NCBI GenBank assembly: GCA_028534125.1
Contig: CM052816.1
Coordinates: 26,228,001 to 26,292,000 of the forward strand
Length of the DNA: 64,000 bases
Direction: 5' to 3'
DNA from: Lama glama
Lineage: Eukaryota
A program made the translations under genes and the position numbers. Positions 6,980 to 53,118 of the stretch are shown here, one piece after another (the first letter of the stretch is position 1; the number at the start of each line of letters is the position of its first letter). The notes under the pieces are model-generated. The model had not been told where the DNA came from and searched no databases. It saw only the letters and a list, made by a program, of their open reading frames with translations.

Positions 6980-8231
6980 TTTTTAAACATTTTTTATTGA
7001 TTTATAATCATTTTACAATGTTGTGTCAAATTCCAGTGTTCAGCACAATTTTTCAGTCATTCATGGACATATACACACTCATTGTCACATTTTTTTCTCT
7101 GTGAGTTATCATAACATTTTGTGTATATTTCCCTGTGCTATACAGTGTAATCTTGTTTATCTATTCTACAATTNNNNNNNNNNNNNNNNNNNNNNNNNNN
7201 NNNNNNNNNNNNNNNNNNNNNNNNNNNNNNNNNNNNNNNNNNNNNNNNNNNNNNNNNNNNNNNNNNNNNNNNNNNNNNNNNNNNNNNNNNNNNNNNNNNN
7301 NNNNNNNNNNNNNNNNNNNNNNNNNNNNNNNNNNNNNNNNNNNNNNNNNNNNNNNNNNNNNNNNNNNNNNNNNNNNNNNNNNNNNNNNNNNNNNNNNNNN
7401 NNNNNNNNNNNNNNNNNNNNNNNNNNNNNNNNNNNNNNNNNNNNNNNNNNNNNNNNNNNNNNNNNNNNNNNNNNNNNNNNNNNNNNNNNNNNNNNNNNNN
7501 NNNNNNNNNNNNNNNNNNNNNNNNNNNNNNNNNNNNNNNNNNNNNNNNNNNNNNNNNNNNNNNNNNNNNNNNNNNNNNNNNNNNNNNNNNNNNNNNNNNN
7601 NNNNNNNNNNNNNNNNNNNNNNNNNNNNNNNNNNNNNNNNNNNNNNNNNNNNNNNNNNNNNNNNNNNNNNNNNACACTCATTGTCACATTTTTTTCTCTG
7701 TGAGTTATCATAACATTTTGTGTATATTTCCCTGTGCTATACAGTGTAATCTTGTTTATCTATTCTACAATTTTGAAATCCCAGTCTATCCCTTCCCACC
7801 CTCCACCCCCCTGGTAACCACAAGTCTGTATTCTCTGTCTGTGAGTCTATTTCTGTCCTGTATTTACGCTTTGTTTTTGTTTGTTTATTTTTGTTTTTGT
7901 TTTTTAGATTCCACATATGAGTGATCTCATATGGTATTTTTCTTTCTCTTTCTGGCTTGCTTCACTTAGAATGACATTCTCCAGGAGCATCCATGTTGCT
8001 GCAAATGGCATTATGTTGTCGGTTTTTATGGCTGAATAGTATTCCATTGTATAAATATACCACCTCTTCTTTATCCAGTCACCTGTTGATGGACATTTAG
8101 GTTGTTTCCATGTTTTGGCTATTGTAAATAGTGCTGCTGTGAACATTGAGGTGCAGGTGTCATCCTGAAGTAGATTTCCTTCTGGATACAAGCCCAGGAG
8201 TGGGATTCCTGGGTCATATGGTAAGAAAGGT
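6980..8231 (-). mobile_element. Young 5'-truncated LINE-1 (camelid-type 3'UTR, ORF2 C-terminus), split by an assembly gap
   Basis: ORF 7904..8248(-) encodes the L1 ORF2 C-terminus (PYDPGIPLLGLYP...MFTAALFTIAKTWKQPKCPS...WYIYTMEYYSAIK); T-tail at 6978-6984; perfect 14-bp TSD AAGAAATATTTCTT at 6966-6979 and 8232-8245. Confidence 0.95.
7174..7673. other. Assembly gap (500 N) with duplicated flanks
   Basis: N run; 7075-7173 is repeated identically at 7674-7772. Confidence 0.97.
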
Positions 8232-12657: not shown

Positions 12658-13128
12658 TGTATTAATTTCCTAGGGCAGCTGTAAAAAAGTATCAAACATT
12701 GAGTGGCTTAAAACAACAGAAATTTATTGTCTCACAATTCTGGAGACTAGAAGATGAAATCAAGGCATTGGCAGAACCTTGTTCTCTCTGATGGTTCTTG
12801 AGGAGAAGTCATCCTTGCTGCTTCTAGCTTTCGGTGTTGGCCAGCAACCTTTGGCATTCCTTGGCTCAAAGATGCCTCATGACAGGCGGATAATGTCTTC
12901 TTACTGTGTATCTTCATGTCGTCTTCCTCTGTGTGTCTGTCTCTGTGTCCGAATTTCCCCTTTTCATAAGGACACCAGTCATATTGGATTACGGCCCACC
13001 CTAATGACCTCATTTTAACTTAATTACCACTATAAAACCCTCATTTCCAAGTAAGGTCACATTGTGAGATACTTCGGGGTTAGGACTTAAACATGTCTAT
13101 TTGGAGGATATAGTTCAACCCCAAAACA
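12658..13128 (-). mobile_element. MLT1 (MLT1B/C-like) MaLR solo LTR
   Basis: 'tgtattaatttcctagggcagctg...ggcttaaaacaacagaaatttattgtctcac...aaggacaccagtcatattggatta...ttcaaccccaaaaca'; TG...CA ends. Confidence 0.9.
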
Positions 13129-13500
13129 GTAGCTTATTCTCTCTTATTTTTGAGGATTATTCCATTGTATGGATAGTTCACAATTTATTTTTAATCTGTT
13201 CTCTTGACAGACAATTGAACTGACCAGTTTTGAGCTACTGTGACAAAGATGCTGTGAGTATCCTTGTACATTTATTTTTGTGATTGTTCATTTCTCTTTC
13301 TTGAATATTTGAGAATGGACTTGCTGGATCACAGGTAAAAATGCATTTAGTTTTATAATAAACTGTCAGATCTTTTTCCAAAGTGTTTTTTGTTGTTGTT
13401 GTTGTTTTTTACCATTTTGTACATTCACTAACAAAGTATAAGAATCCTAGTTGCTCTACTTTGTCATTGTCACTTACAACCTTGTCATTGTTATAAGTAA

Positions 13501-16500
13501 TTTTTTTTGTTTCTTATTAAGATTTTATTGATGACAAAAGAGCTTAGAACAATTTGGCCAAAAATCAAAAGTTACATTGTGTTGGTACAGCTGCTCCTCA
13601 ATTTAGAAAACTCAAGAGTAACCGCTGCTATGAAAGTGGAGAACAAAGAAAACAGCACGGAGAGGAGGCAAAAGCATGCCTCTATACTGCCTACCAAAGA
13701 AAGGGGACCAAAGCCCTACAGCATTGGTAATAAGTCAGCATCCTTGCCAGAAGAACAGTGGCCTGTGTGTCTCCATCTCTCCCATGTATAAGCTGGAATC
13801 TGGAGTCTTTGGGATAAGGGCCAGTGTCAGATGCACTGGAAAGGGGAATCTGGGGAGGTTAGGATCACCAGAGCTTGGGTAGGTGGAGGATAGTCCCCAA
13901 CTAGGTGGTCACTAGGGAAATGAATGTCCCGGCTTCGGTGTATGAGGAGCTCGGGTCTGGCGCTCTCAGCTACGCAAACCCAGGAGGATGACCACTCTAC
14001 TTGCCAAAGTGACAAATTCCTCTAAGCTGCTTCTGCACAGGACCAAATTATTTCTGAAACTTAATCCTTTTCCCCCAAAGCAGAAGTAACTCTACCTTAT
14101 GGAAACTGCATCCATGGGTAGAAGGACTTCGGCAGGAAACAAGGAGGGCATGGAGCTCAGCATGTCTAACTGTCCATAGGGGCTGTGGGTGCCCCACTAG
14201 GGGTAGGGATGGGCCCTCTTGGCTGCTGCCTTCTGCCAAATCCTCAGGAAGGACCCCGCAGGAAGAGGCCACTGCCCAGGAAATAGCCACCTTCCTGGCA
14301 GACTAGCCTGAGTCCCCTATTGGGGATGGGGGGCAGTGAGTGAAGGGTGAGCCCACTGCCCCTGAGAAGCACTTTGCTTCCCAGAGTCCCAGGGAGAATG
14401 GAGTTGCCTGGCCCTGAATGCTGCTCCCTCACCACCCTGATGTGCAGAGAGACGCCACTGGAAGCTAAAACTGAAAACAAAAATTCTTCTTGCAATTGCA
14501 TCACAGGTGTTTATCCTAATCTCTACTTGTTTGGTTTGTTTAAACTTCATTTCTGGAAGCTACTCACATCACCCAGGTCCACCACTAAGATTTGGGAGAC
14601 AAATTTAGGAAAGTCTTTATTTCAGTACTTCTTTGAAAGACTAAAAAGCAAATAGAAGCCTCCCAAACATGTATTTTCTTTAAATGGAAACCCTCTTAGA
14701 GCAGAGGCAGCGTGACGCCTGTGGTTTCAGAGCCGGTGTGGATAGCACACCTCCGTGGGGCACTGCTTAGCACAGCTGTCACCTGCAAGGAGTCTGCCTG
14801 GGCACAGAAATGTGAAGTTTTTTTTTTCTGCTAAAATGTAGTTCCCTTTAAATAAAAGAGAAAAAGAAAAGAATAGAGGAAAGGACTCCTCTGAGATGAG
14901 GGTCTTCCTTGCTCCCTCCTGGTTGCAGACCCAGGTATGGACACTTTGAGTTCTGGGCCTGCTTGGCAGCAGAGATGGTGGGGCTGGCTGGTAGGCAGTC
15001 CTCCGTGGCAGGACCTATGTTCTGCTCTCTCCTCCCTCAACTCCCTCTCCTCCTGACTAGGTTCCTGGGCCTGCTGAACTGTATGAGGCTCTCCTGCAGA
15101 TTGTACAGCCCTCACCTGGGTCCCACCCCTAACCCCCAGCAGGTGGTTGTAATTCAGCAGGTAGTTCCAGAGCGGCTGCTTGGACAGGGTCTTTGTGTTG
15201 CCCATATCATGCTCTGGTCAGGGCCACAGTGGGCTAGCTGGGGTTGTTTAAAAAATCCAATGCTTTGGTGCTTATTTTCCCACATACAGGAGAAGACGAT
15301 AAAATTGTTCTCGAACCCCTGAGATACAGTCATGCTGCCAGTCTCCACCCCCTGGTAGGGCCTGGTGGGCAGGGAGTCACTGAACTGCATGTACTGCTCT
15401 GGAGGAGCATTGATCCTCATAGGACATGATGATGGACATGATGATGGCAATCTGGCCCAGCATGGCACCTGTCTTCAGTAGCTTTATCATGATCTTTTCT
15501 TTGTTTGCAGCCTCTGCCCTGTTAGGTAGGAGCCTGAACTGATGATCTCCTCCTGGCCCTGGGTCACACAGAACATGTTCATACAACCCACTGCTATTCT
15601 GACAAGCGCCTCTGTAGAAGATGCGGGACAGGAAGGCGCTGAATGAAGGATATATCAGATAGTGGACCAGAGGCAGATGCAACAAACGGGATGAATGCCT
15701 AGCCCCACCAGGTGCTCAAAGAGTGACTGAGCCAGCCCAGCCTTGGCTGCCTTCCTGCACATCACCACGGGGTCCAGCTGGCAGTGATCACCCATGAGGA
15801 TCAGCTGCTTGGCTCCTAGGACACAGGGACCATGCCCTCTGGGGCTCAGCGGCCTGGGTGACTTCATCCATTAAAAAGAAGTGGAAATGCATCTTGGCAA
15901 GCCTTGGTCACCCACACGTGCAGCCGATGACATCTGTGCTCATGAGCAGCAGCCTTTCTGTAGTGTGCCTCTGGTGCACAGATGACAGTTCCCCATTCCT
16001 GTCTTTCAGCTACTGCAGTTTCTGGAGCTCTGCATCGCTACCCAAGTGCCATGTCTGGTTGTGTGAAGTCAGCAATGACAGTGGGGAATCAATGACTTTG
16101 ACGCTCTGCCTTGGGGCAGAGCTACAGGACTTCCAACCAGGTCTGTGGATCTTCTTGGTCAGCTGATCCTTGGCTGCAGCACAGGCCCAGCACCCTGCTG
16201 AGCCAGATGGTAGATGACTATGGCTGAGGGGACCATCTTCTGTGTGCCTGGTGGTCCCCTGATTTGGCTCAGCAGCCTCTGCAGCACGGTCTTCAGGGAG
16301 TCAGCCTGAGAGTGGTGGCAGTCAAGGAGCCCTGGTGCCGTGAAGTGTTTGGGCAGCTGTCACTTTTTTATCACACCTAGCAGTTTACGGTAAATGTAGC
16401 CTGCCCCTGGAGGTTTGTTCCACAGCAGATGTTTTCAACACTCTGCAGCATGTCAAATGAGGCTGACTTCCGCATGAAATCCACCCGGAAGTTAAGAGTC

Positions 16501-17958
16501 TCTCCACAGTGTGCCCACACTGCTCTGCAGCTCAATGGTGAGCTTGTTGCCATAGTTACCAGGGACTCTGATGACGTTGGCCCATCCTTTTCAACAGGGG
16601 CACCAGGTCCCCTTTGAACCACAGGCAAATCCTATGCCCCTGCATGAGCCACATGTTTCTTAACCAAGTTATTACTAAATACTGATTGCCAGAGTCAGTC
16701 TTGGGCAAAGTGAGGAAGGCAGTTCTCTTCTTGTTATGGCCTAGGTCCCACCTGACGGTGATGTTACCTTGAGTCTGGGACTCTTTCAGTTTCTTACGAT
16801 AGTTGGCTTCCAGGTTGACCAGAGGGCCAAATATCTCCTGGTACTGGTAAGAGTCCTCATGCCAGGTTCATGTGCTGGGGCCCCTTGTCCACCACTGGCT
16901 TCTCCAGGTCCTCCAAGGTGGTGGAAGGATTTTCATTCTAGAGCTGCTCCAGCTGGCTCATCTACTTGCTAGTAATCTGCGAGCTCACAGGTGTTCCTGC
17001 TCAGAGGGCATGATGACCAAGCAGGACAGGAAGCAGTGGTCCTGGATCAGGTGCTGCCATGTCAGCCATCCCAGTTGACTAACTTAATGCTGCTCTGACT
17101 GGTGTGGGGCTGCCTGCAAAGCAGCCCCACGACCCAGGTGGCTTCGGCAGGAATGAAGCCGAGGAAGGAGGCCCTGACGCAGCCGCAGTTGTAACACTCC
17201 TGGACCTTTTCCTCCACAGCCCATGCTATGCAGAGTCGCCTTTTTGCATTTTGCTCTCAGAGGTGATTTACGATGTGGCCGGTAGAAGCATTAACGTGAC
17301 CTATAGAACCACTTCTTGCTGGTATCACAGTAAACCGTGCAAGCCAGATACTATATTCCTCACTAACTGCAGGCTTGTATGGGGAGATCCTTCCTGTAAC
17401 AGGTATTGTCTTCATCCTCTTTGAAGTTTAACTCTCCGGACAATTGGCTGCTCTTGGCCACGCCCACAGCCTCATGCGGTTCTGCAGCGTGGTGCGGAAG
17501 CGCCCACCTGCGATTCCAGCTATCCTCCTGCAGCGCCCACACAAACCCGGCCTCCAGAGCTGCCCCCTCCAGGGGCACTGGTGGCGTAGGGAGTGTCTGT
17601 CCGGCCAGGGAGGATGACCTCAGTAAATTCGAACTTGGGGCCCTGCAAATCAAAGCCCAGCAGATCCGCCTCCTTCGAGTGCAGGAAGGTGCGCATGCGC
17701 GAGCTGAGCACGTATGCCTCCAGGCTCGTGGTTCCGCCTCCTCACAGCTCGTGAGCCTCTCGGTGGGCGGAGATGTAGATTCAGCATCTTCGCCTGTGCC
17801 TTTCCTCCCCCAGGCCAGAGCTCAAAGGCCGCTGCTGCGGAAGGTTGTCGGCCTGGTCTTGAGCCACTTTGCCTGGGGCCACACACTCAGGGCTGTCCTT
17901 GCTGCCCTCGTGGCCACCCGTCGCGTCGCTCACGACACCAGCAGGAACCGCCGTCTCC
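13501..17958 (-). pseudogene. UPF1: Processed pseudogene of UPF1 (regulator of nonsense transcripts 1), full-length ends with an internal deletion
   Basis: Intronless collinear UPF1 peptides across shifting frames: [116 protein letters not shown]. Start codon ATG>ACG at 17729-17727; stops and frameshifts; Walker A GPPGTGKT>GPPGTQKM (16257-16234). GC-rich 5'UTR 17730-17958; 3'UTR ~15054-13510; AATAAA at 13529-13524; A tail 13508-13501. Confidence 0.97.
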
Positions 17959-17968
17959 TGCTGTAAGT
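17400..17968. promoter_or_regulatory. CpG-island-like segment at retrocopy 5' end with NRF1 palindrome and GC box
   Basis: About 35 CpG in 560 bp by hand count; TGCGCATGCGCG at 17690-17701; GGGCGG at 17765-17770. Confidence 0.45.
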
Positions 17969-18839
17969 ACGTTGCTTTAATTTTACTTATTCTGGGGGAT
18001 GTGAGGTGGCCTCCATTGAATTCCTGATTTAAGATACTGGTTTTTTTAGTTTTAGAATTTCTACTTTATTCTTTTGATATAAATTCCAGTTTTCTGGTTG
18101 ATTTCTCCCTCTTGTAATCTGTTACCACAGTTATTTTAAAGGCTTTTTCTGAAAACCAGTATCTGAATCACCTAGGCCTGAGTTTGGCTGCCTTTTTGCC
18201 CCTTTTAGTTTTCTGCCTTTTACTTTTTAGTTTTTACCTTTCTGCCTTTTCTGTCTTTCAGTTTGCATACCTGGTAAATTTTTTATTGACTTACTAAAAT
18301 TATGTGTAAAAATTTTCGCGGTTCTTGAAACGTCATCTTTCCCTAGAGAGGAGTTCTTTAGTTTACGGCAAGCAATTAGAGAAGGCATGGATTACTTTAA
18401 TTCAAACGGGTTGAGCTGATTCACAGCTGAGTTCCATTCTTTGTAAAGCTGGTTTATTTCTGGTTTAACCACAACCTTAGACTATAACTTTTGTGGTGTC
18501 CAGTTGAGCCCTTGGGGTTTTTATCAGAACCCCATCCTTCTAGTGGCCCCTTAATCCCATTTTTTAATCTCTCCAGAACCATGAAACTGGCAAAAAATCC
18601 TGAGTGGTTTCTCAAACTCCTAGCAGCTACTTTCTGCCCTGCGTTGTAACTTCTCTGCCAGCTCTACTTACAAATTAGCAAATGCCTCAGGGGGAAACGG
18701 GTTCAAACTACTGGACTCAGTTTTTTGAACTCTTCTCTCTAGAATCTTGGCCTCTTAGGTCCTGGCTGTCTTTATGCCTTTGAACTCTAATTTTAGTCTT
18801 TTTAGGCTCGTGAGATTGCTGAAGTTCTTTAAAAGACTA

Positions 18840-33545: not shown

Positions 33546-36500
33546 GAGTTATAGATGGGAAAGAGCAGAATTTCCAAAAATTCCCAAGTCATGCTGGATG
33601 TTCCCCCTCTACCTGCCATGACCCGCCAGGGCCATTTCAAACCCACATTAGCCCTTAAAAATGATAAGGTCAATTCAGCTAAGCCACCCAGTTCTTAAAA
33701 AGAGGCTTTTTAAAAACGAGAGGCTATGCTGATCTGGAAATGTGTATTGATCTTTTAATTTGAACTTATAAATTTAAATTTTATCTCAGTGGAAAGAGAC
33801 TAGAAAAAATTAATGCTTTCTAGCCAGTTTCTGGTGAGTGAGACCAACCAAACTTGAAAACCAATGAAAACAACAGCAGACCAGAAAAGTCAATTATTCC
33901 GTTTGAATTAATTTTGTCCTTTGAGATGGTTACTATTATTATCATCTCCATGTTACAGATGGAGTTTTTCAGTAACTTTAATGGTCACACGTATGTGAAG
34001 TGGTAAAAGTGAGGATTTGACCAGGTAGGTAACTCCTGAGGCCACACTGTTACACCGAATTCTCTTGTAGAAGGTGCTTAATAAATGTTGAACTGAACTG
34101 AAATTGTCGAATTTACCGTGTGCCTTGGCTAGGAAGAAAACAGGCCTTTTGTATTACGAAAAATAAACGGCAACCCAAGATTCTAAGAAGTAGCCATAGT
34201 CACAGTTCCTCCTTTCTCTGGAGGATGTGATTACCTTAAGATAAATCCCAGTGTGCAGAATTACTTTACTGTCATCAGCATATACAATTAAATATTTATT
34301 AGGCAAATTAATGTATTTAAATTTGTTTAAAATTAAGCTGACCACTAATAGCTCTGCTCATCAGTTAAGACATTATATGTTATTCTACAGCTTAAGAACG
34401 TTTTAATGGCTGATAAAATTGCTCCCTAGATTCTAGCAGCTTTCAGATTTTGAAATTACAGCTGAAGATACTCTTAATCATTCCTAAATTACCAACTACT
34501 CACTGTTCACCTCTAAATTGTCTAATTGATCCTTCCATTTGAGGAAAATAATAAATAGAACTTCCCGAGAGATAAATTATTTACAGGGTAGGTATACCTT
34601 ATACAGTTGTGAATACTTTGAAGACACAGTTGGCTGTAGAATGGAAAACAATTTGAATATAACAAAGTCTGTGTATTTAGCTAAGTTGGAGGGAAAGGAC
34701 CAAGAAAATTTCACTATCGTAGAGCTGATTAAAATAATGGTATTGAATTCAAGTGTTTCCCTGTATAAATTGATGTTTATCAAGTTTCTAAACTATGTGT
34801 ATCTATTTCCATTTTCTTAATGTATCTTTTTAGGGACAGATGTTTAATTATGCATTCCTACCACTAAAATGTGGTAGGGCCTTTGAACAGATCTCTGATC
34901 ACTTGGAGATTAAGCATCAGTTAAGACTTTTTATCCAGACTCAAATTATTCCATCAAATACTTCCCAGCTCTGAGTCAAAATGGAAGAATTGTAAAAAAA
35001 CAAAACAAAACAAAACAAAAAAAAACCACACACACACAAAAAAGAAGACAGTGATTGTAAAAAGATGTTATGGTCTCTGTATACACATATAAAGGAATAT
35101 ATAATATATTCCAAACCCTCAGCTGGAGAGGATGCTACTCTTGGATCATGCTTTTCCAGTACATTTAAATATACCAACACCACTGTGTCGTTGGCATGAG
35201 CTGAGCTTCCAGCCTGGGAAGAGCCACACTGAACTTGGAGTAACTCTGATATCCCCTTTTGGGGATATTTCTGGAAATTAGAAAAATCAGATAAAATATA
35301 CACTATTTTATCTGGCTAACTGTATTTACTCTGAAAATTCTGTGATCGTTATTATAACTTTTAAATTCAGTTGAACATTTTGAAATGCCAGTTCTGTGCA
35401 AAGTTCTGTGCTTTGTGCCGTGGATGATACAATGATCAGCAGACGTGAACCTTGTCTTTAGGACTTTAATCAGCGGGGATAGAGAGGGAAAACCTTAATC
35501 ATAAAAGGTGTATGTGCTATAAAAGAGGTGAAAAGTCTATTAGGAATAAAGCAGAGGCAGAGAGCAATTCTTCTGATTAAGTGATGGAGCTATGGCTTCA
35601 GGAAAATAGCTGCATTTGGAGTAGACAGATTTTGATGTGAAAAGAGGTAGCGATGAGGACTTCCCATGAATAGGACATCTTTTCATATGAATTCCAAAAC
35701 CTCCTAGTGATGAGGAGAGGGCACTAAGTATATAGATTAATAAGAGTCTAGACCCTTGTAGCAGGCTCATATACCAGCAGTTTCTGTTTGTTTGACCTTA
35801 ATTCCAACATATACTATTTGACTTCTTTCTGTGACTTCTTTAAATCGTTGTAAATGCACTTTGTGTGACTTGGCTTACCAATGTCTCTAAGCCTACAGAA
35901 AATGGAGGTGAAGTACTTAGTAAATATCACACAGAAGCAACCTGCCATTCTGAACTCACAGTTAGGCATTATTCTCCTCCCGAGGCTTGGCTTGCCATTC
36001 CTTGCAGGCATGATTCAATAAGGCAGAGGCAACTTACTGTTTCGTTGTGAGCACCATATGAGTGGCTAGAATTGGAGTCTCGCAGCGTGAGACCCTCACA
36101 CCTTGACACCTGAGCTGGGTACCGTCCAAGCTCCTGAATCCAGGGTTATTCCCTTCCCGCTCACCACCTCTTTGCCCCTAACTGGCTGTGGTATTGTTAG
36201 TGAGTCAGAGGTGTCGGAAGTGGAACCCACTGTGACACTGAAAAGAAGACACTTTGACCCTGTCCACTTTCTCCTTGTGCTGAAGGTGTGCTCCACTTAA
36301 AATGGTGTGTTTTATTTCAGCTGTTTGTGAAACATGGTGTTTGCCTAGTTGCAGCATTTACACCATCTCTTGCTTAGCCTGGGGATCCCAACATTTATAT
36401 CAAACCTACAGTTGCTAATTTACAACTGCGAATACCCGTTAGTTTGTTACAGTGCTAATTTAATTTAATTTCTTATGAATGAGAAATTCTGAGGTACAGG

Positions 36501-50150: not shown

Positions 50151-53118
50151 CACCTTTTTTTTTGAAGCAAAGATAACAATGCAACTTTCCCATCTTTACA
50201 CAGGAAATGCTACTTCTCAAGTTAACTGCAGTAGCCCAGTGCAATAAAGAATTCATAACAATAGCTGTGGTGCTGAACATTACCCTTCTAATCATAGATT
50301 TTATTGGAAGCCATATACCTTTTAGAGTCGGCATTTCATTTGCCTCCTTTGCCTTGTAGAAAGCCTGCCACTGTGACAACGAGTAGGAGTAAAGCTAGCG
50401 GTCTTTTCCAAATTCTTTCTTAGACGCAGAGCAAGAAAGAAAGAGAGAAAAATCACACCGATGTTTCTAGCCATTTGTGTTAAAATACAAAGCAAACAAA
50501 ACAAGGCACATTCAAAAATGGTGTGCTGGGCAGCCTCCATTAATATTTATCTTGGCATTAATATTGATAAGGAAGTACTTTGTAGCTGGGCTCTGTTGCC
50601 TCCCCCAGTGTCCTCCAGCTCTGTGTTCTCCGCCCTGGTGGCCATTAGCTCCCTCTCCCTCTGTACCCAGAGCTTCCGAGAGGCTTGGCAGGCCTCCAGC
50701 TCACTTATGCTTAAATGGACACTCAGGCTCCCACGGACACACAGCTAAATAGAGGCCAATAATTCAATACAGTATGACTGTACTGGGGCTGCTAGTAAAT
50801 CCATCAAGCAGTAAATATCATCTGAAGCCAATGCAAGCTTTTATCTTTCCAATTTTTTTGTATGTCTGAGCGAAGCCCAGGCATTCAGCGAATCATGTAA
50901 TTTATTCTGCGGTGCTGAGTCTGGGCTGTCTCAGGCATCATATTGACTTTTTTTTTTCCATCTGTCAGGGGCAGTCAGCGGCTCTGCTGTTGTGGGAGCG
51001 CATCGCATTACATCTCTTTATTTATTTATTTCTGCTGAGGCTTTGTAGAATGATTGGGCAAGAACGCATTATCTCAGATCAACGAATACTAAGAAAAGCA
51101 TCTGAACATCATTACGACAGCATGTTAAACATTTGTCCTACCCAGTTTGTTAAATCAGCAAATGTATTTCCAGCAAATGCTGGTAATTGTTCATAAAGGG
51201 CTCCCTACTGCAGGGTTTTATTAAGCTGAAAATATGGCCTGTTATTTTCTTCAGCTCTTTAGGTCAGTGGTGATGCCTATATATTGTAAATAGTGCTGAA
51301 CAGCTGCTGTATCATCTTGTTCTGGTGTCTCTGTGTCTGCACACAGACACACACCTCCTCGCTCTATCTCTGAACGTTGTACACATATTTTGTGCACATG
51401 TGTATGTCCATATGATATAAAGTACTGTGTATCTACTTAGCAAAGTTAATAACATGATTAGGTTAATAATCAGGTTATGGTATCCAATGGTTAGAAAATA
51501 TCTTGCCTTCCAGTCAGTCAAAATTTAGACTGGGAGCAAATGGATTTGGGTTACTCTTGCTGTACTACTGAAAACTTCAAAAGTATGAACCCTACATTTG
51601 AATGTTATTTTGAGCTCTCTCAGTCTTCCTTCTGTGTAACCTACAAACTGAACAGAGAAGCGGGAGGAAGACGACTGTCCCCAGAGTCCTTCACAGTGGG
51701 ATCTGAGACTGCTAAGGGCAGACATACCCAGTGGTGCATAGCATGGCTGGATGATGAGACCCTAAGTTCAGCCTGCTTCCCCGCTAAGGCATCCCCCTAA
51801 ATCCCCAGCCCTTCCTCTAAAGCTGATTATTCTGCTTCTGAGACTCAGCTGGACTCTCAGTTAATTCAGTTTGGATTTGATTAGTGTCTGACTCTGGGAG
51901 CGCACATCAGAGAAAAGTATTTTGAAAGTAAGTGTCTTGATCTTCTTTAAGTAAATAAACATGGATTATAAATGTACTTCCTAGAAGCATCAATGCAGAA
52001 TGCACAAATGGAGCAGTGCCTTAGAATCAGCCATGGTGTTTGCCCAACTTCTCCTTAAAAATGTTTTTTAAAAAGAGATCAGACCTTTTTATATGCCTAT
52101 AAGTGAGGCGATTCATTTTTATAAAAGAGGAAGAATCAACATAGTTTTGAGAACCTGGTTCCTCCATATGTATGATTAGATTTTTAAAACATAACGTCCC
52201 ATTCCTTTGGAAGGCTTTGTGCTCTTTGAAAAAAATGTGTTGGTTGTACTTGAAAGAAAATATCTCCCCCTGGACTGATGGTGAAAAACGACTTTGTGTT
52301 TCAAACTGCGTTATTAGTGTCACTACCTCAGAAAATATCAAATTGGTTTCTCCTGCCACATCTGACCAGGAGAATCTAGGTAAATGTGAGTCTCGTTCTG
52401 AGACTGGATAAAGTCTTTGCTCACACTCTTGGCTGTACAGTTAGCTACATCCTTCTCTTGTACATGACAGAGAGCGTCAATGCATATGTTTACTTCGACT
52501 TCATTAACCTCCAGTTAGAAAGTCCTGCACAGTACTTGCTGCTCTAAGTATTCCAAAGAGCAGCCACACTGTCTTTCTAAAGAAACACATTAAAAGGCAA
52601 CTCACTGAGCCATTTTCTAACACCTGAGAGCAATTAACGTAAGCAGAGACAGGAAACATCATCAATTATTTAAAATAAAATGAATATGTAATGCTGACCT
52701 TCTCCAACTGACATCAGTTTTATACTTACACCTGAATAAACTCAAGGGAACACAAAACCCACAAGGCACTACACACTGCAGTTTGCAGTAAGGCCGGCGG
52801 TGGTCACAGGGAGAGCTGCCTGGCCGGCTGCATTCAGCACAGAGAGGGCGGTGTGGGAGTCCAGGGCACCTGATGAGGGTGGGTGGGCCTCTGGCTCCAT
52901 GAATGCCTCGTGGGCACCCGGGACTAGCAGCTTCATGTACAAGCTCTCTAGCTTTACAGTTTCTTTATTTTATATTCCCACCATCTTAAGGGGAGGGCTA
53001 ATATTTCTGTTATTACATAGTTCTGAATATATGTGTGTCTATACATATATATATATATATATTCTATTATTTTTATTTGCTCACATGAGGTCATTAGTCT
53101 TTTTCTTTTCTTCTACAG

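What the first reader, a model, noticed from the sequence alone, without database searches (positions are those of the whole stretch)
16658..16690. UPF1 retrocopy is a fossil of the long-loop isoform UPF1LL
Seen: the minus strand reads K T D S [GGC AAT CAG TAT TTA GTA ATA ACT TGG TTA AGA = [11 protein letters not shown]] N M W L M Q G. Known: mammalian UPF1 has an alternative 5' splice site adding 11 aa (GNEDLVIIWLR) to the regulatory loop of domain 1B; this long isoform is the minor one in most tissues and has different RNA-binding and NMD target properties. Inference: since retrocopies sample germline or early-embryo mRNA, this one shows UPF1LL was expressed there in an ancient ungulate ancestor and sets a minimum age for the splice event.
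Basis: partly seen in the sequence, partly recalled or inferred. Interest (0 to 1): 0.7.

Follow-up and report, generated by a model that had tools for sequence, protein, structure and literature searches.

The report
Old UPF1 long-loop retrocopy, antisense-spliced
A long-dead, intron-free copy of the UPF1 gene carries the 33-base insert of the known minor long-loop isoform; this likely reflects an ordinary chance capture that does not redate the isoform, and RNA data from a related species show the copy's opposite strand spliced into what is likely a non-coding RNA.

Summary
Observation confirmed. 16690-16658 (minus) reads [11 protein letters not shown] and aligns without a gap to long-loop UPF1 (6EJ5, 143 bits), against an 11-residue gap in short-loop chains (107 bits). 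It runs straight into the next exon, so the template mRNA was spliced at the distal donor. The copy is a decayed processed pseudogene: residues 2-937, 64% identity, 12 stops, 24 frameshifts, no intron, poly(A) signal and A-tail. The interpretation adds little. The insert is invariant in primates, rodents, bats and a porpoise, so orthologues already date it to before these groups split. The copy looks laurasiatherian (weak evidence), so it would be younger than that bound. The long form is 15-25% of UPF1 mRNA, so catching it once is unremarkable. About 2.45 kb of the copy, insert included, is thus likely an antisense exon of a spliced, probably non-coding RNA. Such retrocopy exons are a known class; heavy mismatch to the parent and no sign of constraint argue against regulation.

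The parts
16657..16689 (-). 33-nt exon-7 extension of the long-loop isoform (codon frame 16690-16658, [11 protein letters not shown]); the proximal donor dinucleotide at 16689-16688 reads GC
   Evidence: the phase is inferred from the human siRNA target
15055..17726 (-). Decayed intronless UPF1 coding remnant, residues 2-937; 553 of 869 aligned residues identical, 12 stops, 24 frameshifts; residues 938 to the end are missing
17727..17970 (-). Likely 5' UTR remnant and decayed start codon (reads ACG); CpG-rich (G+C 0.64, CpG o/e 0.69), part of the only CpG-rich stretch in the window
   Evidence: identity as 5' UTR is inferred
13514..15054 (-). Likely 3' UTR remnant, with AATAAA at 13529-13524 (a second at 14621)
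   Evidence: a high-depth X19 contig, likely the parent's 3' end, fits 13514-13552 and leaves the window where the A-run begins
13501..13513 (-). A-rich tail remnant; no significant target-site duplication found
   Evidence: best candidate reached by 24% of random places
13224..13253 (+). 3' end of an upstream exon of a plus-strand spliced RNA, followed by the donor GTGAGT (13254-13259); exon start not determined (contig has 119 nt before the junction)
   Evidence: loose end maps here, 28 of 30 bases, 0 chance matches in 100 shuffles
13254..15510 (+). Inferred 2257-nt GT...AG intron ending in a pyrimidine tract and CAG
15511..17962 (+). Inferred 2.45-kb exon antisense to the UPF1 copy, containing the 33 nt; followed by GTAAGT at 17963 (possible second donor at 17967)
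   Evidence: contig ends at 15511 and 17964/17966 in X15 and X17; downstream exon not seen

Best explanation
This is a dead processed pseudogene that carries the long-loop form of UPF1 exon 7, likely copied by LINE-1 machinery from an mRNA that used the distal 5' splice site, probably by chance from the minority pool in an early laurasiatherian germline; in a related species its opposite strand is now joined by splicing into a plus-strand RNA that is likely non-coding and likely has no effect on UPF1. Shown: the insert, the spliced continuation, no introns, decay, a poly(A) signal and tail, and one RNA contig that bridges 13253 to 15511 at canonical splice signals. Inferred: LINE-1 as the copier, the date, chance capture, the downstream splice at 17962, and lack of function.
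For: Gap-free match to 6EJ5 against an 11-residue gap in short-loop chains. Colinear over residues 2-937 in 2672 nt, largest insertion 12 nt. Continues into exon 8, not into the intron read-through seen in 8 genomic ORFs. AATAAA and A-run. Divergence at non-degenerate sites 188 of 1023 (K2P 0.215), 0.155 at A/T sites, 11-15 times the per-lineage distance to the relative. Long form is 15-25% of UPF1 mRNA (passages). Antisense exon: X17 contig carries 119 extra nt before 15511, of which the 30 shown map to 13224-13253; donor and acceptor are canonical only on the plus strand; a contig starts or joins at 15511 in 3 of 3 RNA runs laid, two of them RNA on record and from different studies. No function: longest ATG ORF in the joined exons 83 aa; exon divergence to the relative 2.85-2.9% against 1.7%, 3.05% and 3.0% in three flanking contigs; longest identical run to the parent protein 9 residues; endo-siRNAs are minimal outside rodent oocytes and erode as pseudogenes decay (PMC13399003, passages).
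Against: No target-site duplication was found. No parent-gene DNA or whole genome was available, so dating rests on protein-determined positions and a low-complexity hinge (about 4 log units between the best laurasiatherian and primate scores; pig and deer scored below primates). The junction sequence is shown for 1 of 3 RNA runs only; in X19 contigs also run unspliced past 17962 to 18079. Contigs carry no strand and their depth (60-74 on the exon, 2.5-9.4 beside it in X15 and X17) cannot rank expression. The DNA control run X5 laid almost nothing (4 of 30 bins). The RNA comes from a relative, not from the window's own species. The neutrality test has little power at 3% divergence.
Confidence: 0.8

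Rival explanations
1. The long-loop form was enriched or dominant in the ancestral germline, perhaps because the parent's proximal donor was then a weak GC, and the copy records that state.
For: The one copy seen is the minor form; the proximal donor reads GC where human has GT. Isoform ratios vary among mouse tissues and human cell types (PMC5861435 section 15).
Against: One draw at 15-25% needs no enrichment. T-to-C decay affects 18 of 239 determined T sites in this copy, so GC is readily explained by decay. Short-loop proteins are annotated in camel, donkey, yak, zebu and deer.
Confidence: 0.08
2. The antisense RNA is a working trans-antisense regulator of UPF1, pairing with parent mRNA or pre-mRNA; the antisense 33 nt could single out the long-loop form.
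For: The exon spans nearly the whole remaining coding region plus the insert; it appears in runs of two studies, one labelled reproductive system; both splice signals are intact in the window's species as well. The class exists (PMC5397607, PMC7290577).
Against: 18% mismatch at non-degenerate sites and 24 frameshifting indels; at most 9 identical residues in a row; the insert differs from human at 4 of 19 compared bases; no constraint on the exon; non-rodent oocytes make few endo-siRNAs.
Confidence: 0.05
3. The RNA signal is not a spliced antisense exon: it is DNA carry-over, a polymorphic genomic deletion or an assembly artefact.
For: Contigs are unstranded, RNA libraries can hold DNA, and the DNA control was uninformative.
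Against: The bridged ends fall exactly on GTGAGT and a pyrimidine tract plus CAG (about 0.5 such donors and 1.4 such acceptors per kb in the window); X15 also holds contigs across the skipped 13405-15540 stretch, so that DNA exists in the relative.
Confidence: 0.08
4. A DNA-level duplicate, or a copy of partly spliced pre-mRNA with a remnant of intron 7.
For: The 33 nt are AT-rich, like intron; no target-site duplication.
Against: Exactly 11 codons then exon 8; no insertion above 12 nt in 937 residues; poly(A) signal and tail.
Confidence: 0.01

Closest known systems
Mammalian UPF1 long-loop isoform (UPF1LL, isoform 1; PDB 6EJ5; PMC5861435; bioRxiv 10.1101/2021.01.27.428318)
   Same: Same 11-codon extension at the same junction, 8 of 11 residues identical, same spliced continuation.
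   Different: Non-coding decayed copy; proximal donor GT reads GC; residues 938 to the end are missing.
Processed pseudogenes as archives of transcript isoforms (Shemesh 2006; Podlaha and Zhang 2009; seen only as citations in PMC4772013)
   Same: A retrocopy preserves one splice form of its parent.
   Different: The form preserved is alive, well studied and conserved, so nothing lost is recovered.
lncRNAs with antisense retrocopy exons, candidate trans-NATs (180 human cases in PMC7290577; mouse oocyte endo-siRNA sources in PMC5397607)
   Same: A spliced RNA takes up a retrocopy in antisense orientation.
   Different: The copy is very old and heavily mismatched to its parent, the exon is unusually long (2.45 kb), the lineage is likely non-rodent, and no small RNA or regulatory effect is shown.

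Membership tests
Processed pseudogene | Introns absent | tested here: met
   residues 2-937 in 2672 nt, largest insertion 12 nt
Processed pseudogene | Poly(A) signal and non-templated A tail | tested here: met
   AATAAA 13529, A-run 13513-13501; likely parent contig departs at 13514
Processed pseudogene | Target-site duplication | tested here: inconclusive
   best match reached by 24% of random places; none clear; loss is expected at this age
Processed pseudogene | Disabled reading frame | tested here: met
   12 stops, 24 frameshifts
UPF1 long-loop isoform | 33-nt in-frame extension between ...TDS and DMRL... | tested here: met
UPF1 long-loop isoform | Spliced at the distal donor into exon 8 | tested here: met
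   copy continues NMWLMQG, genomic ORFs continue GDFKF
UPF1 long-loop isoform | GT at the proximal donor | tested here: not met
   reads GC; a single transition in a copy with 18% decay, not needed once spliced
lncRNA with antisense retrocopy exon | Spliced transcript on the opposite strand covering the copy | tested here: met
   bridging contig and plus-strand GT-AG signals; strand inferred from the signals
lncRNA with antisense retrocopy exon | Non-coding | tested here: inconclusive
   longest ATG ORF 83 aa in the two joined pieces; other exons unknown; no Pfam match above cut-off in 37 of the window's 47 long ORFs
Endo-siRNA source or functional trans-NAT | Extended near-perfect complementarity to the parent mRNA | tested here: not met
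   18% mismatch at determined sites, at most 9 identical residues in a row; 9 of 206 runs reach 7 residues; parent DNA not available
Endo-siRNA source or functional trans-NAT | Small RNAs made, or parent level affected | not testable with these tools
   no small-RNA or knockdown data

The most novel reading that the evidence does not exclude
A fossil of the long-loop UPF1 mRNA has been turned into an antisense exon of a spliced RNA that pairs with UPF1 transcripts and, through the antisense 33 nt, selectively tunes the long/short isoform ratio and so the specificity of nonsense-mediated decay in this lineage; with probable stop codons in a 2.45-kb internal exon, the RNA might itself be cleared by UPF1, closing a feedback loop.
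Probability: 0.04. Interest if true: 0.75.

Novelty: new member of a known kind. Interest (0 to 1): 0.27.

Why it matters
As it stands it is a tidy example of a retrocopy archiving a minor splice form. It confirms that the long-loop mRNA was really made (not merely encodable) in a germline or early-embryo cell tens of millions of years ago, but it does not move the isoform's known age or reveal tissue bias. The antisense exon gives a concrete testable locus for asking whether an old, mismatched retrocopy can still act on its parent outside rodents; it would matter to the NMD field only if an effect on UPF1 were shown. No paper on a UPF1 pseudogene came up: 'UPF1 pseudogene' gave 0 papers and UPF1+retrocopy+pseudogene+antisense gave 1, a LINE-1 review seen only as a listing; the library lacks most subscription journals and genome annotation databases were not searchable.

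Tried and rejected
Whole-genome search for other UPF1 copies and the parent gene: no genome held. Protein search with residues 30-80 only: 0 of 24 candidates passed; the whole 95-residue piece worked. Target-site duplication: not significant. Parent long/short junction in RNA: no parent contig was laid over 16600-16780, so the ratio could not be read; the tool leaves human-like records out. DNA control X5: 4 of 30 bins covered, uninformative. Host gene: 37 of 47 long ORFs scanned against Pfam (left out: 6 that cross the N run and 4 minus-strand ORFs inside the copy); two matches, both under the curated cut-off (7tm_3, Miga), and the 7tm_3 ORF has no PDB match, so taken as chance. No tRNA, no Rfam match. 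Dating by diagnostic residues over the helicase core: almost no informative columns; residue 120 is at a possible CpG and uninformative. Testis or oocyte long-loop fraction: not found in the text read (the values are in figures that are not held; bioRxiv supplements were not opened). Earlier scan findings: none in 3 look-ups. Loose ends at 15808, 17222, 16562 and 18027-18156 were not pursued; they are short low-identity matches, parent-gene pieces or repeats.

Full report
Observation. The minus strand at 16861-16577 translates as an unbroken 95-residue piece of UPF1 domain 1B with [11 protein letters not shown] at 16690-16658. Against the PDB it aligns without a gap to the long-loop chain 6ej5_A (143 bits, 8 of 11 insert residues identical) and with an 11-residue gap, exactly at the insert, to the four short-loop human chains listed (106-107 bits). 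The first 19 bases match the human long-loop siRNA target printed by Fritz et al. at 15 positions (compared by eye); one of the four differences turns the proximal donor GT into GC. The insert is 27% G+C inside a 54% G+C remnant, the mark of its intronic origin. This is far beyond chance.

What the copy is. A frameshift-aware alignment to a long-loop rodent protein covers residues 2-937 on 17726-15055 with 553 of 869 residues identical, 12 stops and 24 frameshifts; the largest DNA-side insertion is 12 nt, so no intron is left. Eight genomic read-through ORFs continue from the insert into GDFKF, whereas the copy continues into NMWLMQG, the next exon: the template was spliced at the distal donor. 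A CpG-rich stretch upstream is likely the 5' UTR. AATAAA lies at 13529 and an A-run at 13513-13501; a high-depth contig in run X19, likely the parent's 3' end, fits 13514-13552 and leaves the window just where the A-run starts. No target-site duplication stood out. Residues 938 to the end have no match anywhere in the window. It is a processed pseudogene; LINE-1 as the copier follows from established knowledge.

Age, and what it says about the isoform. At codon positions fixed by the near-invariant protein the copy differs at 188 of 1023 sites (K2P 0.215), and 0.155 at A/T sites that cannot be CpG. That is 11-15 times the per-lineage distance to the related species seen. With a generic mammalian rate of about 2.2e-9 per site per year (recalled) it gives roughly 70-100 million years. 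The glycine-rich hinge scores best against donkey, rhino and Rousettus (27.2-27.3) over primates (20.8-22.9) and rodents (11.9-19.7) under the middle gap setting, the same three leading in all three settings; but pig and deer (21.0) score below the best primate and the region is low in complexity, so this is weak. It suggests an early laurasiatherian parent. Meanwhile the insert is letter-for-letter the same in 14 of the 194 stored proteins, from hamster, gopher, marmot, chinchilla, monkey/human, two bat genera and a porpoise, plus 8 genomic ORFs. The four platypus proteins seen are short-loop; no marsupial or afrotherian name appeared among those listed, and only 15 of 1506 members of the main cluster were shown. 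Living genes therefore date the isoform to the common ancestor of primates, rodents, bats and whales (about 90 million years, recalled), at least as old as the copy. Gowravaram et al. already call it present exclusively in mammals (PMC5861435: passages, section 15 part 1 and the supplement's legends). Fritz et al. put it at about 15-25% of UPF1 mRNA in diverse cells and tissues (bioRxiv 10.1101/2021.01.27.428318, passages). One capture at that frequency says little about germline enrichment. The GC donor is most simply decay: 18 of 239 determined T sites became C. Retrocopies as archives of isoforms are an established idea (PMC4772013, one passage and citations; PMC5470649, passages).

Public runs hold the stretch: 14 of 24 listed at 0.93-1.00 of the words, labelled as three coded organisms (one run of unknown kind), and six RNA or probable RNA runs at 0.18-0.40. 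Four were laid. The three RNA runs come from a relative about 2.9% different and share the same substitutions. Contigs of X15 and X17 span the insert with no indel, so the relative keeps it. In X17 the contig over 15511-17154 has 119 further bases before 15511; the 30 shown map uniquely to 13224-13253 on the plus strand (28 of 30; 0 in 100 shuffles). The skipped 2257 nt begin GTGAGT and end in a pyrimidine tract plus CAG; read on the minus strand the ends would be non-canonical. X15 breaks at 15511 and X19 has 30 unlaid bases there. X15 and X17 break again at 17966 and 17964, beside GTAAGT at 17963; the next exon was not seen, and X19 runs on unspliced to 18079. Contig depth is 60-74 on this exon and 2.5-9.4 beside it in X15 and X17, which fits, though the tool warns that contig depth cannot rank expression. 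So about 2.45 kb of the copy, insert included, is likely an antisense exon of a spliced plus-strand RNA. The DNA control failed (X5, 4 of 30 bins), strand is inferred, and tissue is not established (X15 is labelled reproductive system, X17 is a metatranscriptome).

How that RNA most likely works. The two joined pieces hold no ATG ORF above 83 codons and the window shows no host gene. Retrocopy exons in antisense lncRNAs are common: 180 human cases (PMC7290577, passages); in mouse oocytes some yield endo-siRNAs (PMC5397607, passages). But that route needs a rodent Dicer form, is minimal in other oocytes, and fades as the pseudogene decays (PMC13399003, passages). Here the longest identical run to the parent protein is 9 residues and the exon is no better conserved than its flanks: 2.85-2.9% against 1.7%, 3.05% and 3.0% (low power). 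The most likely reading is neutral exonisation through cryptic splice signals. A regulatory role, even an isoform-selective one through the antisense 33 nt, is not excluded but unlikely (about 4-5%).

Verdict. Observation right; identification right; the evolutionary inference is true but weaker than what orthologues already show. The antisense exon is a new member of a known class. Interest 0.27.

Noticed in passing
window 13224-13253, 15511-17962 (+): Spliced plus-strand RNA takes up most of the UPF1 copy as an antisense exon in RNA runs of a relative; a 2.45-kb internal exon is unusually long.
   Followed up: partly
proteins P0129, P0130 (also P0186, P0008, P0011): Two NCBI-annotated fish isoforms (Dicentrarchus labrax X2, Cebidichthys violaceus X3) carry an unrelated extension of about 13 residues at the same loop junction, with similar sequence in other percomorph entries. 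This may be an independent long-loop isoform; the 'mammals only' claim was checked against zebrafish and frog alone among non-mammalian vertebrates. RNA support not checked.
   Followed up: partly
window about 15055 (-): The copy jumps from residue 937 into what looks like 3' UTR; about 200 C-terminal codons are missing. Later deletion or a second unusual splice event; untested.
   Followed up: no
proteins P0002, P0004, P0005, P0024: Several mammalian UPF1 models have a further 6-9 residue insertion after ...VIKVPD (alternative acceptor); the copy has the common form without it.
   Followed up: partly
window 17251-18000: The only CpG-rich stretch in the window is the copy's 5' end (CpG o/e 0.61-0.69) despite its age; it may have stayed partly unmethylated.
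   Followed up: no
window 12660-13130 and 13135-13490; 18000-18500: Flanks look like an old MLT1-type LTR and old LINE-1 fragments (recalled resemblance, no repeat library available); the upstream exon and its donor lie in the LINE-like piece.
   Followed up: no
window 50377-50745 (+) and 34944-35315 (-): Weak Pfam matches below cut-off (Miga, 7tm_3); the second has no PDB match; likely chance.
   Followed up: partly
window 7174-7673: Assembly gap of 500 N.
   Followed up: no
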